The position numbers and the translations under genes are program-made. The notes beneath the pieces are model-generated. The model was not told the DNA's origin. It worked only from the letters and a program-made list of their open reading frames with translations, and did not search any database. DNA of 64,000 bases from Saccostrea echinata (taxonomy: Eukaryota). Below, piece after piece: positions 47,601-61,400 of the stretch; within the stretch, counting starts at the first letter, position 1; each line of letters begins with the position of its first letter. Location: contig NW_026889758.1 of the NCBI RefSeq assembly GCF_033153115.1, forward strand, positions 7,502,001 to 7,566,000, read 5' to 3'.

Positions 47601-49336
47601 ATGGGTTTGTGTATAGTGTACATCATCAGACACTGTGAGTTTGTGTTTGCCAATCAGAGTGGGGTCACAGGTAAATGATATGTGATAGGTAGCAGGTGGC
47701 CAGTGTAGCATGCAATGCTGAAGTCAATTGAATACAGGTAATCATTTTAAGAACATTGGACTATTATTATTAATCATAATTAAATGTCAGGTAAGGAGCT
47801 GAAATTTTACACTTTAAAATTTGCATTTAATATATCCTTTGGGTCTCTTATACTGTGCTATGTATGTTTGGTTGTGACCCTTTGTTTCCAAAGCTTAAGG
47901 TCAATAGGAAACTTGGTTGCTGCGTGCCATAGGTCATACAATATGTCAACAGGGACCTAAATACTAAGTCCCTGATGTCAATAATTTAAAATTTTAGAAA
48001 TGTAAATCATGTAGCCATAGTAGCTTCTGTACCCTGGTTACATTCAGAATCCAGATAATATATATAATAATAAAAGTAGAATTTGTATTATTAAGTAACA
48101 CTGTACCCGGAACGACTTTACTTTACCGGTCCCCAGAAAAACGCGCTAAAATATAGTGTCGCCGTAGGCGACTTCAATATATACGAGATCGCGTGAGCGA
48201 TCGAAAAAAATAAAAAATATGAGGTTTTAAGCCTCTTTGACCCCAAATTCGAATTTTACGGTTAAAAGTTTAGTTTAAAACTTCGTTTATAAACGAAGTT
48301 TTTAACCTCGTTTTCTGAAAAAAAGTAAGAAATGTTGTTTATTCAGTGGAAAGGAGACAAAAAATAATTGTGAACGAAGCGCGTGCGGCGCATGCTTAGT
48401 GCCGTTTCTTTCGTACTTAGCCATTTTTTTCATGTAAACAAACCAACGAGATGTCGTTGAAGCTGAATTAAGATCTTGCAAAAAATACAGATGCAACTGA
48501 ATTTCTTAATTAATCTAAAAGAACAAGACACTAACCCTTATCTCTCGGATGGTATGCGAGGCCTAACCCAAATCTCCCAGGCGGATGCTAGACCATGCTA
48601 GACTAACCCATGTGCGAGGACTAACCCTAATCTCTCGGATATATGCGAGACTAACCCTAATCAGTCGAAAACTTATGCAAGGACTAACCCTAATCTTTCA
48701 GGTGGGTGCAAGACTAACCCTAACCAGTCGAAAAATGTGCAAAACCAACCCTAATCAGTTGAGTGACGTAAATCTTACGTCATAGTGCAATGAGCGCGCG
48801 GATCTTGCGGATCTGGGGACCGGTAAAGTAAAGTCTGTAACCAGGTCACGTCAACAGTCCTTCAGAAATTTTCTACTTTCATTTTTCAATGCTTTTATAC
48901 TGAAACCTTTTTGTAACCTTATTGCTAAAGGATAAATAGGGGATGTACCCTAGGGTACAAAAGTATGACCTAAAAACACAGTACCAATTTCTTGCCATAT
49001 ATGGTCAATGTTTGCAAACGGTTTGTACTTTTATTAATTAAGGTTTAAAATTTGGCAGTATACGGCACCAAAAAAAAATACATGGTAAGAAACAAAACTT
49101 ATAAACAAACGGGGGGTTCCCCACTTTGAGGTGCCTGTGGTTGTATGAACGAGTCCCAATTTTTCTATATAAATCTTACCTTCTAAAATTGGTGGAATAC
49201 AGTTGACTTGAATTGGAGTGGGCTGACGAAGTCCCATTGTATGACACTGTGCCCATAGCCATTCATTAAGTTCTAACTTCTCAAACTGTTCTCCAGACTT
49301 TAATTTTTGTTTACTCGAACTTGCCATCGCAGCCAT
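36661..49336 (-). CDS. DDX49: DEAD-box RNA helicase DDX49 (Dbp8 ortholog), 12 exons
   Basis: Exons 49336-49180, 46689-46566, 46401-46316, 45188-45067, 44902-44724, 44339-44199, 43946-43794, 43527-43430, 39333-39259, 39164-39076, 38114-38043, 36759-36661. Q motif [54 protein letters not shown], and the DDX49-type tail [16 protein letters not shown]. Alternative ATG at 49327. Confidence 0.95.
38820..38996. mobile_element. Tc1/mariner (pogo/Tigger-like) MITE
   Basis: TA|CAGCTGAACTTTGGTATCTCGAAC ... GTTCAAGATAACGAAGTTTGACTG|TA, with internal ATCTCGAA repeats. Confidence 0.8.
40415..41349. mobile_element. Kolobok-type non-autonomous element (third nesting level)
   Basis: TTAA|GGAGGTTGG ... CGAACCTCG|TTAA. 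The empty-site paralog at ~41778-41830 has a single TTAA. Confidence 0.75.
41558..41628. repeat. (TA)n microsatellite
   Basis: About 35 TA units. Confidence 0.98.
45225..45560. repeat. 22-bp minisatellite next to the DDX49 exon 4 acceptor
   Basis: About 15 copies of TATTGTGGATATGATAATTAAC. Confidence 0.92.
45626..46080. mobile_element. hAT-type MITE
   Basis: ATTTTAAC|TAGGGCT ... AGCCCTA|ATTTTAAC: perfect 8-bp TSD. Confidence 0.85.
47950..47974. mobile_element. 25-bp TIR remnant with 7-bp TSD (probable P-superfamily excision footprint)
   Basis: ATGTCAA|CAGGGACCTAAATACTAAGTCCCTG|ATGTCAA. Confidence 0.7.
48114..48835. mobile_element. TIR element with internal telomere-motif repeats (DDX49 intron 1)
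   Basis: Perfect 24-bp TIR GACTTTACTTTACCGGTCCCCAGA; CTAACCCTAA motifs at ~30-bp spacing in 48530-48760. Confidence 0.8.
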
Positions 49337-50034
49337 GCTTGTGCTAAAATTGTCAATGTTAGGTATACGCTTCCATTCTATTTTGAGATGTTTCCTACCT
49401 TCAAACACAGTATTGACGAAGAAACAAGAGAGATGTAAAAGAGAAAATTTATTCTCGAAAGGATAAAATTTCCCGGTTTAGAAAGGTATCGTTTGTGTGT
49501 AAATGTTCATAGCGTTTCTTATATAAATAATTCTTTGCAATATCCCAACATCCACTATTGCATATAATAAAATCCAAAGCCCCTCCCCTTCCCCCTTTGC
49601 TGCTCCTTCAACTGTTCAAGTCCCCAAAACTTTCTGTATTCTCAAAAATGCTTAGAAAAAATTAATAAATGATTTGGCATCCAAACTTTGAAATTGCCTC
49701 ACTCACTTGAAAATCGTGGTGTTGGCCTGGTTAACCAACTGACTTTGGAAAAAAAAAGAACGCTGTGATAATTTGATTTTTTTACAAAAAAAATCTTTTG
49801 ATATTGATCCATTCATCAGCTCTTAATTCTGTTAATAACTACGATAATATTGTCTAAAAGAGGTTATTTTCTTGGCCGTCAAAGTAAATTTTGGAAAAGT
49901 TGATCTGGTCATCTTGTAAAAAAAAATTATCATGTGATACTCATCCTTTTTGTGTTCCCTTGGATGTATGAAACATCTATATGTATATATATTTATTATA
50001 AGTAAAATATTCACGCATCATTTCAGATTGGTAA

Positions 50035-55439: not shown

Positions 55440-58400
55440 TTATGCCCATATCTGAAAAGAGAAAGAAGAATAAGATACATTACAAGTAATGGCTTTATTA
55501 ATACACAAAATATACGTTGTTAATTCATGTCAAACCAAATATTTCAAAACAAGAACTAAAATCATTGTATATCGTGGACTTCCAAATTGACCAAATGCAA
55601 AGACTGAAATGAAAGGCAGAAAATCATTCCCTGATCTTAATTAAGGAAATATGATAAAACAAAAGCTGCAGGTAACAATACAGAACATTCAGAGTCATAG
55701 AGTCAAGTCATAGTACCAGATGACTTTTCCATCAAAATCTGACCTTTAGTGTGTAATCCCAGCTTCCTGTACATAGAGCTGTCCCATCAGGAGACACTCC
55801 CAGACAGCTGACTCGGTTCTCATGAGCATACAATATGGAAACTCGGTGACCTTTGAGAACATCCCAGATGTTGACAGTGTAGTCGTTATATCCTCCAAAC
55901 AGAAGACGTCCTAGGAAACAAAGGTAAAGGTATACGTAAATCATTTGTTAATACAATGTTCATGTAATCAGATGTTAATGCTTTCTACACAATGAGGTTA
56001 AACATTTACATGTACACTTGAATGTACACAAGTAATAAAACTTGCAAGCCAAAGATATAAACAAAAAATTTGGCTAGCCTTTACACAGTCTTCAAAACTG
56101 TTAACTCTGTTTACATGAGTATTCTGGTACTTGATCACATATTTCACTACTTTTGAAGAAGTAATCAGAGGTCTGACTTGTACAAGTACTTACTGATGGA
56201 AAAGCAATTTGAAACCTGATTTTTTACTTTCTGAGTTATGTGTCACTGATTTGAGGTCTGATTTGTATTAACTACTGATGGAGAACTGATTCAGTCTGAA
56301 TTGTGTGTTCCATAGATTTGAAGTCTGACTTGTACTTACCACTGATGTAGAAGTGATCTAATGTCTGACTTGTACTTAACACTGATGGACAGGTGATCCA
56401 ATGTCTGACTTGTACTTACCACCGATGTAGAAGTGATCTAATGTCTGACTTGTACTTACCACCGATGTAGAAGTGATCTAATGTCTGACTTGTACTTACC
56501 ACTGATGGAGAAGGATATGACATCTGACCTTTACTGAACACTAATGGCGAAATGACTATCTTACTTGTACTTACCACTCATGGAGAAATGACTGAATGTC
56601 TGACTTGTAATCTCCACTGATGTAGAAGTGATCTAAAGTCTGACCTGTGTGGGCCCTCTTATATGAATCTGACTTATGTGGACTACAGATATGAATTCTG
56701 ACTTACCACTGATGTAGAAGTGATCTAATGTCTGACCTGTGTGGGTCCTTTAATATGAATTTGACTTATGTGGACTACAGATATGAAGTCTGACTTATGT
56801 GGACTACAGATATGAAGTCTGACTTACGTGGACCACAGATATGAAGTCTGACTTACCACTGATGGAGAAGTGATCTACTGTCTGACCTGTGTGGGCCCTC
56901 TTATATGAATCTGACTTATGTGGACTACAGATATGAAGTCTGACTTATGTGGACCCCAGATATGAAGTCTGACTTATGTGGACCCCAGATATGAAGTCTG
57001 ACTTACCACTGATGGAGAAATCCACAGAATTACAACCAAAGATCAGACTCTCCTTCTTATAACAGTTCACCTCCCTGTCAGCTCTCAGGTCAAACAACCT
57101 GCACTGTAATCAATTATTTAAAATTGTAATGCAATAACTGCACTTATTGACAGATTTAGCCTATATTTAAACTTATTTCTGACAATTACTAGTTAGTTCA
57201 CAATATTATGCTGGTTAAACCAAACTTCATGATGCAACAAGAGATGTTTGTGAAACACTTATGCCCCCCAATAATTGGAATTTTTGTAAGTCCAAGGGGC
57301 ATAACTCTGTCAAAAATTGCTCAATCATACCCAGAACAGAACTTGACTTGATATTTTTATGATAAATCTGTAAACCAAATTTCATTTCAGTGTGTGCAAC
57401 CTCTGTAAAGAAAATGAACGGAAACTGCAAATAATTGGAATTTTCTTAAGTCCATGGGGTATAATTCTGTCAAAAATTGCTCGATCATACCCAAAACAGA
57501 ACTTGACCTAGATATTCTTATGATAAATCTGTATACCAAATTTCCTTTCAGTATGTGCAACCTCTGCAAAGAAAATAAAGAAACTGTTGGTGGACCAACA
57601 GACAGACTGACCGACAGACAGCAGCAAAGCAATTCTTTAGAGCTTATACATGTATATAGGTTATGGTGAAAATACTGAACATACAGTGGCGTCATCAGAT
57701 CCTGTGGCGAAGGCATCTCCACTAGGATAAAACCTGACGCTGTTGATATCTGAGTCATGGCCCTCAAACATCTGTACACACTCTCCAGTCCGCATGTCCC
57801 ACACATTGGCCACTTTATCACAACCCTATTCACCAAGCAGACTTTATTATCTTTACTAATCTTTCTAAACATAACATTACAGTTGAAAAAAAAAAAAACC
57901 CAACAGTTTTCTAAATATTTCCCACTTTAAGTTCATTTATATGAGGAGGAACAAAACATACCCCAGACACAAACATATTTCCAGTCTCTGATGGGGAGAG
58001 ATCAATACTCATGACATCACCAGCATGTCCATGGAAACTCTGTATCAGCTGACCACTCTCCACATCCCATAATGCACATGTGCTATCTCCACTTCCTGTT
58101 AAAATCTGTAATGATGAAAATATTTGTCTACTTACAAAATTTATGTTAAACTTGACACAGGAGAATTCATATACATGACTACCCTAGCAGGATTCATAAA
58201 ATCATACATGTATTTGAATGCACACATAGTAATGAATGCATATATATATGATGTACTATATATATACCTATAAAACAAGTCTTATGTTCATATAAAATAT
58301 TTTGGGTATTCCCCTACTTGTATGTCTTTTCTATCAATCAAGCAATTCTTTCCCTCTTATGTATATGTATATTGTATTTCGTGTGTATGATCATAATCAT

Positions 58401-61400
58401 TATATACATTTTAACAATGTACTTTCTTTTTGCCGCATGAGGGCCCTTAATTGGTCAATAAACGAATTGAATTGAATTCAATATACATTACATGTAAAAA
58501 ATAATTACAATGCAAATGGCACATGTATGTTGATATTTGACTCTATGTTTACAATTCACTGTAAATGTAAATTAATTTTAAATTAGAACAAATGAAAAAT
58601 TAGCTACCAATGATAACAGATCTTATAATAATACAGTTCTGATGACGACCGTCTCTGGTCGAAACCGGTCAACTAAATAAATTCACTTATGCATTCTCAC
58701 AAAGTGTTGGAGATCTGTTTGTTCCGTTAAGATCTTATAATAGTTAGAATGTCTTGCTGCTTGTCTGTTGATCTGAGAAGGCAAACACACAACAATAAAA
58801 GTTTCATATTAAGTGAATGGCAACATTTTATCCATTTGATTGATTACCTGTTTGTCTGAGGTGGTAAAGATACAATGGGACAGGCAGCTAGTGTGGCCGG
58901 TAACTGATTACCTGTTATCACAGGTGGTAAAGGTATAAAAGGACATGTAACTAGTGTGGGTGGTTACTGATTACCTGTTTATCACAGGTGGTAAAGGTAC
59001 AACAGGACATGAAACTAGTGTGGGTGGTTACAGATTCTCTGTTTATCTGACAAGGTAAAGATACAACAGGACATGTAACTAAGTGTGGGTGGTTACTGAT
59101 TTCAAGTTTACCAGAAGGGGTAACATACAACAAGACATGTAACTAGTGTGAGTGGAAACTGATTACCTGTTTATCTGAGGTGGTAAAGGTACAACAGGAC
59201 ATGTAACTAGTGGGGTGGTAACTGATTACCTGTTTATCAGTGGTTGTTAAAATACAACATGTATCCATTGTGGGTGGTTACAGATTACCTGTTTATCTGA
59301 GGTGGTAAAGGTACAACAGGACAGGTGACTAGTGATGTGGGTGGAAACTGATTACCTGTTTGATTGACTGATTACCTGTTTGTCTAAGGTCAATAAATGT
59401 ACAAAAGGACATATGAATAGCACAGATGGTAAATGATTATCTTTTTATCTGAGCCTTTAAAGATACAAGACAGTTAACTGATTACCTTTTTTGACTTATT
59501 GATCAGCTGTCTTAATGGTCAATAGGATAGATAACTGATTACCTGAATGATTTATTGAGTTGTGTGATGTAGTAAAGGTACAAAAAGATTGTAATCAGTG
59601 TGAGTTGTAACAGATTTCCTGTTTGTGTTTAGGTGGTAACAGGTGAATGGTGTGGGTGGCAACTGATTACTTATTGGATTGGTTGATTTCCTGATTGTCT
59701 GAGGTGGTAAAGGTACAACAGGACAGGTAGTTAATGTGGGTTGTAACTGACTATGTTTGTCTGAGGTGGTTAAGGTACAACAAGACCGATAACTAGGTGA
59801 GAGAGTAGGTGGTAGCTGATTATCTGTTTGTCTGAGGTTGTTAAAGTACAAAAAAAAGATAACTAGGTGGGAATGTGGGTGTTAACTGACTACCTGTTTG
59901 TTTGAGGTGGTTCAGGTACAAGAAGACAGATAACACAGTGGGAGAGTGGGTGGTAACTGATTACCTGTTTGTCTGATGTGGTTTAAGCACAACAGGGCAG
60001 GTAGCTAGTGTGAGTGGTAACTGATTACCTGTTTGTCTGAGGTGGTAAAGGTACAACAGGACAGGTAGCTAGTGTGAGTTGCAACTGCTCTCTTTTTGGT
60101 TGCTGGGTCATCATCCATACTCAGAGGGTAAATTGTACATTTATTGTCTAACCCTCTACAATGTAAATAACCAGTCTGCAAGATTTTGAATTTTATATAG
60201 ATAAATTATACAGGACTATTATTTGTTTGCACCACACATGTTTGGGATAAGTGACAGTATAGATCTTTATCACAACTATTGCTGCAATTGTTCTCAACTG
60301 TACATGTAAAGTAATGCATAAGTTATGACATGTCATGTTTAACTCACCTAAAAACAATAACAAAATATTACCACACAGCACTGTCTTCACTCACTACCCA
60401 TCAATTATTTTTCACTTGTAGTTTCTGAACTGTTAAAAGCCTAGAAGCTTATCTTAAATTCTGATATGAACATACAGAAAAATTAACAGATTTTACTTTG
60501 CTCATAATTATTTTCACATTTCCTTTCCAAAATATATTAATCAAATTGAATTGACAGAACTTAATCTATTATTTAATTTACAATGTTAATTTTGTATATC
60601 TATCCTGCCTAAATGCTTGGAAAACAAACTGCAACAACAATATAGCTGTATATTTTTTTCACTAACAATATAGCTGTATCTATATTATATTCACTAACCC
60701 ACAAGCAACAACCTCTCCAGTCGGTCCGTACGAACAAGCCATCACCCATGTTGTTGGCATAGTAACTGCATGTTCCTGTAAAAAAAGAAAGTAAAAAAAG
60801 AATATACCATGCCTTTAACTGTTTTGTGCCTAAATATCTTTAACTGTTTTGTGTCTAAATATAAAGCAATGCAAAGGTTAAAAAAATACAGGCTTCTGTA
60901 CCTTGTTTGTTGTGAATGCATCCCAAACCAACATCTTTCCATCCTGAAATAATCAGTGATACCGAGCTTAAGACAAACTTTCTTAAAAATCACATACATG
61001 TATCCTAGTATACCTCAAGATTCTTGTTTTAATTCAACAATAGTATCTACTTACAAGAATTATATTGATATATATTGGATAAACAAGTATCTGTAATTAC
61101 ATTCATGTCTAGACAACTATGCAAAATTTGACACAAAATTTTCCCAAAAAATTGATTAAAAAGTTATATGTATTTTTGGACTAAACATAAAAACCCTTTG
61201 TTTTGCATGTTTAAGCCACAATTTGTACTAATGTACACATCTGACACTGCAAAAGATGAAGTGCCCCTACCAAACAATATAAATTCAATTTTGAGAATCA
61301 TTATTTAGGACCACTAGTCCTTGAATGTCTTTGGAATAACATATCAAAAGATTTGGACATCCCCTTTCCCATACATGACTTAGAAGTAGTTGCCTAGATG

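What the first reader, a model, noticed from the sequence alone, without database searches (positions are those of the whole stretch)
58618..58742. 99-bp retro-insertion that is essentially a minimal hammerhead ribozyme plus poly(A) signal
Seen: an intact hammerhead core (CUGAUGA, GAAA, GUC cleavage after 58670), stems I and II, and a palindromic ACCGGU stem III, followed by AATAAA, all between perfect 13-bp target duplications. It is antisense to GNB5 intron 5. Known: minimal type I hammerheads with palindromic stem III mark Penelope-like element termini and retrozymes, and can act as dimers. Inference: a recent, extremely truncated Penelope-like insertion or a tiny ribozyme-bearing mobile RNA family; the antisense orientation spares the GNB5 pre-mRNA.
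Basis: partly seen in the sequence, partly recalled or inferred. Interest (0 to 1): 0.7.

Follow-up and report, generated by a model that had tools for sequence, protein, structure and literature searches.

The report
Cap-bounded stub of a Penelope retrotransposon
This 99-base insert is a recent stub of a Penelope-type jumping gene, not a mobile RNA family of its own; many sister stubs begin at the very same base, often with one extra G, which likely marks the capped start of the element's uncut RNA and so likely records how these poorly understood elements copy themselves.

Summary
Observation confirmed: 13-bp TSD, minimal hammerhead (plus an unmentioned extra C), palindromic ACCGGT, AATAAA, antisense in a GNB5-like intron. 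The insert is the end of a Penelope-like element (RT + GIY-YIG, Neptune/Nematis-type linker) with at least 123 end copies in this genome. It is not a separate RNA family: short copies track four parental subfamilies. Nor is it randomly truncated: 17 of 102 arms start exactly 35 nt before the hammerhead cut site, and 11 of those 17 carry a non-parental G (13 of 85 elsewhere; p=7e-5), the signature of a copied cap. 3' ends fall at two fixed sites (about +60 and +170), and 38 of 39 inverted insertions use one of each. Best reading: target-primed cDNA starts internally about 95 nt from the RNA's start and runs off the cap of uncleaved RNA. Five arms (four events) start exactly at the cut site, a weak hint of in-vivo cleavage. 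Self-cleavage, poly(A) use and orientation bias are untested. The scan's own notes report the same cap run-off idea in other genomes (unchecked AI notes); I found it in no paper searched.

The parts
58618..58630 (+). left target-site duplication, 13 bp
   Evidence: chance level
58631..58635 (+). 5-nt junction addition not matching the parent; this copy has A, not G, before the element start
58636..58638 (+). fixed element 5' boundary (position -35) and 5' arm of stem I; inferred transcription start
   Evidence: 17 of 102 arms start here, 11 with an extra G; subfamily identity rises from 71-80% to 97-100% here
58639..58670 (+). minimal type I hammerhead: CUGAUGA, extra C, 4-bp stem II, GAAA, palindrome ACCGGU, GUC; predicted cut after 58670
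   Evidence: matches the min-HHR description in PMC4209133; no Rfam hit
58671..58673 (+). 3' arm of stem I; 58671 is position +1, where 5 arms elsewhere in the genome begin
58676..58681 (+). AATAAA; use as a poly(A) signal untested
   Evidence: kept in 78 of 93 arms that cover it
58682..58731 (+). rest of the pseudo-LTR end up to the proximal fixed 3' end (about +60, inferred priming site 1); the last 2 nt (AG) are shared with the TSD
   Evidence: 70 of 153 arms end at +45..+75
58730..58742 (+). right target-site duplication, 13 bp
57960..58110 (-). GNB5-like coding exon 6, downstream of the host intron (approximate bounds)
60030..60160 (-). GNB5-like coding exon 5, upstream of the host intron (approximate bounds)

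Best explanation
The insert is a 94-nt piece of an endonuclease-bearing Penelope-like retrotransposon, likely made when the element's reverse transcriptase started inside the RNA about 95 nt from its 5' end and ran off the capped start of an uncleaved transcript. Shown: parent family, two fixed 3' ends (about +60 and +170 from the hammerhead cut site), a fixed 5' end at -35 with a frequent extra G, 13-bp TSD, and intact sequence across the cut site. Inferred steps: (1) Pol II starts at the G 35 nt before the cut site, so the hammerhead is the first thing in the mRNA and has only a 3-bp stem I there. (2) GIY-YIG nicks AT-rich DNA on both strands about 13 bp apart. (3) One nicked strand primes at +60 and the other, when used, at +170, which builds the head-to-head insertions. 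(4) The +60 cDNA reaches the cap after 94 nt, often copies it as an extra G, and is joined to the target; here five other bases were added instead. The stub is a recurrent by-product, comparable to a retroviral strong-stop cDNA that integrated. As a lone antisense monomer it is likely inert for GNB5.
For: Parent: PF00078 (36.1 bits, cutoff 29.6) and PF01541 (28.4, cutoff 22.6) in L032; partial tandem in L068. 5' pile-up: 13 of 66 arms (10 of 53 in the anchor-unbiased set) at -35 against a simulated 0.6-1.2%, p<1e-9; 17 of 102 with all loci. Held-out loci L119-L130, fetched after the idea was formed: 3 of 9 arms at -35 (2 with G) and 1 at -34 (L124 read from the printed flank). Extra G: 11 of 17 versus 13 of 85 elsewhere, Fisher p=7e-5; the parent has T there. 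An untemplated G is attributed to cap copying for L1/SVA (PMC3287187, passages). In S2 stem I could extend to -40, yet S2 stubs still start at -35. In another species' run (X11) 3 contigs have loose ends before -35 whose consensus ends in G. 3' ends: 70 of 153 arms at +45..75 and 76 at +149..171; 38 of 39 inverted pairs have one arm of each, none two of the same, 1 unclassifiable (p=4e-12). Some distal arms stop at +59 to +63, next to the proximal site (L052, L131, L127). Internal initiation at two sites, extension of both strands and use of uncleaved RNA were shown in vitro for Anolis Poseidon (PMC11167929); the Drosophila Penelope transcript starts inside the pLTR (PMC2377424).
Against: No RNA ends could be seen: only assembled contigs were served. 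This copy lacks the G; 6 of 17 arms at -35 have A, which is unexplained. A TATA-like block lies at -26 to -16 from the inferred start (a perfect TATAAA only in S4), closer than usual, and I found no correctly spaced downstream promoter element by eye. -35 is also the 5' foot of the conserved stem I. Arms of one insertion are not independent, one likely duplicate pair (L087/L107) survived the filter, and copies found by hammerhead patterns favour 5' ends at or before -32 (the unbiased subset still shows the peak). No empty site was found.
Confidence: 0.72

Rival explanations
1. Penelope stub whose -35 boundary is set by RNA structure or processing (an exonuclease stop or cut at the foot of stem I, or a preferred joining point), not by the cap.
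For: -35 is exactly the first base of the conserved GTT/AAC stem; conservation starts there; 6 of 17 arms, including this one, lack G.
Against: The G excess is specific to -35; S2 has a longer possible stem but the same boundary; the parent has TT, not AG, before -35, so it is no splice acceptor; similarity of this copy's flank to the parent's upstream DNA is at chance level (1111 of 6632; 693 of 1548).
Confidence: 0.16
2. Member of an independent, self-propagating ribozyme mini-RNA family (retrozyme or SINE-like) mobilised by Penelope proteins.
For: Shared 5' and 3' ends, TSDs and about 95-nt length in several copies; retrozymes are proposed to derive from pLTRs (bioRxiv 10.64898/2026.07.22.740005).
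Against: The 13 arms at -35 tested split among S1 (5 arms, 0.92-0.98 to S1), S4 (1) and S2/S3 (7) and match long copies of the same subfamily; junction bases differ; no tandem units among the 145 loci; some end at +170 or sit in inverted pairs.
Confidence: 0.06
3. Ordinary random 5' truncation that happens to stop just before the hammerhead.
For: Scattered 5' ends occur all along -100..+63.
Against: 17 of 102 arms at one base against about 1% expected, with or without microhomology weighting.
Confidence: 0.06

Closest known systems
Endonuclease-positive Penelope-like elements, Neptune/Nematis type (PMC8557442, passages; PMC3846280, passages)
   Same: RT with DKG motif, C-x3-C-x2-C linker, C-terminal GIY-YIG with two cysteines between GIY and YIG, pseudo-LTR, inverted 5'-truncated arm, tail at one end only, short TSD.
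   Different: The tail is about 110 nt rather than 30-40; a second ORF with two C2H2 fingers follows the RT-EN ORF; a fixed cap-like 5' boundary is not described in the passages read.
Minimal hammerheads (min-HHR) of metazoan PLEs (PMC4209133, parts 1-2 of 4)
   Same: Type I core, extra nucleotide between 9 and 10.1, G10.1-C11.1 pair, short helix I, palindrome at stem III, mostly single motifs in truncated copies.
   Different: Helix II is 4 bp here (7-8 in Schistosoma); the paper gives no in vivo cleavage evidence and does not map insertion ends to the motif.
Poseidon of Anolis, internal initiation of reverse transcription (PMC11167929, parts 1-2 of 4)
   Same: Two internal start sites bounding the tail, both strands extended, AT-rich targets, uncleaved RNA as template.
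   Different: There the ORF starts inside the hammerhead; here the first ATG of ORF1 is about 240 nt downstream. Here many proximal junctions match the element a few bases beyond +59 (mode +61; no null test run), whereas that paper reports no homology. It saw no reads ending at the cut site; here 5 arms begin there.
Non-LTR retrozymes (PMC7229834, passages; bioRxiv 10.64898/2026.07.22.740005, parts 1-3 of 5)
   Same: Small, non-coding, type I hammerhead, related to pLTRs.
   Different: Those are tandem repeats of about 150-400-nt units with mostly canonical hammerheads and circular RNA; this is a single copy with a TSD that tracks its autonomous parents.
Untemplated 5' G of full-length L1/SVA insertions (PMC3287187, passages)
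   Same: Extra G between the TSD and a fixed 5' end, read as a copied cap.
   Different: There it marks full-length copies primed at the poly(A) tail; here it marks 95- or 205-nt stubs primed internally.

Membership tests
EN+ Penelope-like element | RT and C-terminal GIY-YIG in one ORF | tested here: met
   L032: PF00078 E 7e-9, PF01541 E 2e-6, both above cutoff; same frame in L067 and L068
EN+ Penelope-like element | Pseudo-LTR in partial tandem, inverted 5' arm, tail at one end | tested here: met
   L068 partial tandem; 39 inverted pairs, 38 with the tail on one arm only
EN+ Penelope-like element | Single ORF | tested here: not met
   A second C2H2-finger ORF follows ORF1 in S1 and S2; I read this as a variant, not an exclusion
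EN+ Penelope-like element | RT phylogeny in the PLE clade | not tested
   No reference RT set held; assignment rests on domain order and motifs
Neptune/Nematis clade | Zn-finger-like linker between RT and EN | tested here: met
   CYENCKIC between RT and GIY-YIG; criterion from PMC8557442; Neptune versus Nematis not resolved
PLE minimal hammerhead | Core CUGANGA/GAAA/NUH, extra nucleotide 9-10.1, G10.1-C11.1 | tested here: met
PLE minimal hammerhead | Palindromic stem III kept by covariation | tested here: inconclusive
   Invariant among S1-S4; in X10, C>A in 35 contigs and G>T in 36 keep a palindrome, co-occurrence inferred from counts
PLE minimal hammerhead | Self-cleavage as dimer or with protein | not testable with these tools
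   Only a dimer fold and 5 arms starting at +1
Rfam hammerhead families | Score above threshold | tested here: not met
   No hammerhead hit at E<=1 in 57500-60000
Non-LTR retrozyme | Tandem units each with a hammerhead | tested here: not met
   Single copy with TSD; the only tandem arrays near it are unrelated; no tandem hammerhead units in the loci
Non-LTR retrozyme | Own lineage apart from the autonomous element | tested here: not met
   Stubs follow S1-S4 parents
Non-LTR retrozyme | Circular RNA | not testable with these tools
   No raw RNA reads served

The most novel reading that the evidence does not exclude
The genome preserves footprints of three forms of one Penelope RNA: capped and uncut (stubs from -35 with an extra G), hammerhead-cut and linear (stubs from +1), and cut then ligated into a circle or crossed by a template jump (long copies that read through -35 and rebuild the pseudo-LTR and tandems). 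Priming happens near the RNA's 5' end, one target strand at each of two fixed sites. This would give in-vivo evidence that a minimal hammerhead cleaves and a mechanism for pseudo-LTR regeneration, which PMC2377424 calls unexplained.
Probability: 0.25. Interest if true: 0.8.

Novelty: new variant of a known kind. Interest (0 to 1): 0.52.

Why it matters
Penelope-like elements are a third class of retroelement related to telomerase; how they rebuild their ends and what their hammerhead does are open questions (PMC2377424, PMC8557442, PMC11167929). If the reading holds, insertion junctions alone map the transcription start (35 nt before the cut site), show that uncut capped RNA is a template in vivo, show a strict one-strand-per-site priming rule, and hint that cut RNA is also copied. 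Each gives a single-base prediction testable by 5'-end sequencing. The insertion itself is likely without consequence for GNB5.

Tried and rejected
Rfam: no hammerhead model hits. Empty site: no second haplotype in the assembly among the 40 candidates scored; the four DNA runs laid are from related organisms (exons about 89-95% alike) and do not cover the site. RNA ends: no raw reads offered; RNA-guess run X1 holds 7 diverged pieces only, no evidence on expression. Run X10 looked like a 205-nt SINE bounded at -38/+172, but its loose-end consensus resembles diverged parent DNA, so I dropped that idea. A second hammerhead family for replication: a generic pattern gave 39 matches, all this family. 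BLAST extended this copy's left flank into the parent's upstream DNA; the similarity is at chance level. Splice acceptor at -35: parent has TT. Poly(A)-tailed insertions after AATAAA: none clear among the arms printed. The +1 peak was not replicated in the held-out loci (0 of 9), and +19 holds as many arms (5, next to a TGCA palindrome, two likely duplicates). The atlas look-up of ORF2 was unavailable. Orientation bias was not attempted: no annotation.

Full report
Coordinates: +1 is the first base after the predicted hammerhead cut (window 58671); -35 is window 58636.

1. Observation. The TSD, the 99-bp insert, the core, the palindrome and AATAAA are at the stated places. Unlinked flanks share a 13-mer in 9 of about 200,000 draws. 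It is the only such core in the window. Rfam misses it. The monomer fold is unremarkable (z -0.74), and the dimer pairs through ACCGGU. The host is a GNB5-like gene on the minus strand; the insert is antisense in its fifth coding intron, counted from the coding exons I found.

2. Family. The 99-mer has 42 matches in the 923-Mb genome; the core has 54 at up to 3 mismatches; an anchor at +20..+50 has 123, of which 100 were listed. I held 145 loci in all; some of the 23 unlisted matches were probably never fetched. Long copies carry RT and GIY-YIG in one frame, with a DKG motif, a C-x3-C-x2-C linker and two cysteines inside GIY-YIG. By the criterion in PMC8557442 this is Neptune/Nematis-like; no tree was built. 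L068 is a partial tandem whose upstream pseudo-LTR runs through the hammerhead and the tail into ORF1. Four subfamilies are 97-100% identical over -35..+3 but 71-80% over -100..-36 and 75-95% over +4..+60. The window copy differs by 1-3 of 94 nt from four S1 arms, so it is young.

3. 3' ends. Of 153 unique arms (201 before removing repeats of the same place and segmental duplicates), 70 end at +45..+75, 76 at +149..+171 and 7 elsewhere. The reference stopped at +171, so arms that run on into the ORF, such as L068, fall in that bin. Of 39 head-to-head pairs, 38 have one arm of each kind, none has two of a kind, and 1 could not be classed (p=4e-12). Whole-event TSDs are often 13-15 bp. Several distal arms stop at +59 to +63, beside the proximal site (L052, L131, L127), as expected if two primers work on one RNA. 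This fits the two internal start sites and two-strand extension shown for Anolis Poseidon (PMC11167929), with a tail of about 110 nt here.

4. 5' ends. In the first set (115 arms; 106 after dropping six duplicate loci L049, L066, L086, L089, L107, L115), 13 of 66 arms with 5' ends in -100..+15 start at -35, and 10 of 53 in the subset found without reference to the hammerhead. Simulated junctions called by a like procedure give 0.6-1.2%, with or without microhomology weighting (p<1e-9). With all loci, 17 of 102 arms in -100..+40 start at -35 and 7 at -34 (two of these 7 are likely duplicates). The base before -35 is G in 11 and A in 6; the parent has T; elsewhere G precedes 13 of 85 (Fisher p=7e-5). 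In TSD-flanked cases the G lies outside the TSD (L024: G alone; L007, L019, L023, L070: longer additions ending in G); in L008 it could be templated by the partner arm. Twelve loci fetched after the idea was formed gave 3 of 9 arms at -35 and 1 at -34 (L128 dropped as duplicate, L129 as internal deletion, L130 out of range). In another species' run, three contigs have loose ends before -35 with a consensus ending in G. An untemplated G is the accepted mark of a copied cap in L1/SVA (PMC3287187), and the Drosophila Penelope transcript starts inside the pseudo-LTR (PMC2377424). The window copy has ATACA instead of G.

5. The +1 class. Five arms in four events (L080, L081, both arms of L088, L103) start exactly at the cut site, and 5 more at +2..+4. 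Against local density p is 0.001-0.004; against the simulation 5e-4 to 1.6e-3. Against it: +19 has as many arms, the held-out set had none, and stalling at stem I or AT-rich microhomology could add ends near here. I give in-vivo cleavage about 40%. PMC11167929 found no RNA reads ending at the site, and PMC4209133 notes the lack of in vivo evidence.

6. Not a separate family. The 13 arms at -35 tested match S1, S2/S3 or S4 as their long relatives do, have different junction bases, and are never tandem. They are repeated by-products of several masters.

7. Mechanism. Shown: boundaries, G excess, strand asymmetry, intact cut site, TSD. Inferred: transcription start at -35, internal priming at +60 and +170, run-off at the cap. 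More speculative: long copies that extend upstream of -35 need a circle, a template jump or read-through RNA; PMC2377424 says no mechanism for pseudo-LTR regeneration is obvious, and PMC4209133 proposed circles. A transcript starting at -35 would leave the 5' hammerhead only 3 bp of stem I, while the read-through 3' copy can extend it (S2 fold), which could set which copy is cut.

8. Literature. Read: PMC11167929 and PMC4209133 parts 1-2 of 4; bioRxiv 10.64898/2026.07.22.740005 parts 1-3 of 5; passages of PMC8557442, PMC3846280, PMC2377424, PMC7229834, PMC3287187, PMC8782182. No supplements were opened; Fig. S2 of PMC11167929 may bear on junctions. Searches for a cap G, template switch, twin priming or C2H2 ORF in Penelope elements found no paper reporting them (hits seen as listings only, except PMC8782182); subscription papers and Repbase are not covered. 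'Strong-stop' and 'twin priming' are terms recalled from retroviral and L1 work. After my reading was fixed, the scan's notes showed eight similar cap run-off readings on other DNA, none on this sequence; they are unchecked and not counted as support.

9. Verdict. Real feature; a stub of a known class of element; a likely cap-bounded insertion class with a strict two-site priming rule. Interest 0.52; new variant of a known kind.

Noticed in passing
L067:5396-5965 +, L031:3172-3681 +, L032, L068: A second ORF with two C2H2 zinc fingers (PF00096, E 1e-7) follows the RT-EN ORF; in S2 its ATG overlaps the last codons of ORF1. Between S1 and S2, 109 of 167 aligned residues are identical, 50 of them through different codons, which suggests selection. 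PLEs are described as single-ORF; search found nothing.
   Followed up: partly
window 58841-59361 and 59733-60087: Tandem arrays (period 64-71) in the same GNB5 intron are copies of the 3' end of exon 5 with its 5' splice site, i.e. a run of more than a dozen possible decoy donor sites.
   Followed up: partly
run X10 laid on L026:1531-1532: Two adjacent changes (35 and 36 contigs, near-equal depth) turn the stem III palindrome into another palindrome in a related organism.
   Followed up: no
L027, L034, L069: An internally deleted S2 derivative joins the start of ORF1 to about -387; it recurs at several loci, so it is likely a non-autonomous subfamily.
   Followed up: no
L087, L107: About 90 nt of foreign sequence sit between the two arms of an inverted insertion, with a short motif repeated at both junctions.
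   Followed up: no
L045, L129; run X10 joint 1542 to 1503: Small duplications or deletions with one edge at -38 to -33, possible imprecise template jumps at the RNA start.
   Followed up: no
window 58230-58480 and 57600-57633: Other high-copy repeats flank the site and are shared with related organisms.
   Followed up: no
window 8731-10824 (-), 5534-6343 (-), 22221-23093 (+), 24588-32762 (-), 49034-49477 (-): By eye only: a long nucleotidyltransferase/Mab-21-like frame, a DEG/ENaC-like exon, an ankyrin/SOCS-box gene, ClpX-like exons and a DEAD-box helicase exon. Names are recalled, not tested.
   Followed up: no
L074:3-2012 (-): A frame resembling the N-terminal part of a Polinton/Maverick-type DNA polymerase lies near one copy (name recalled, not tested).
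   Followed up: no
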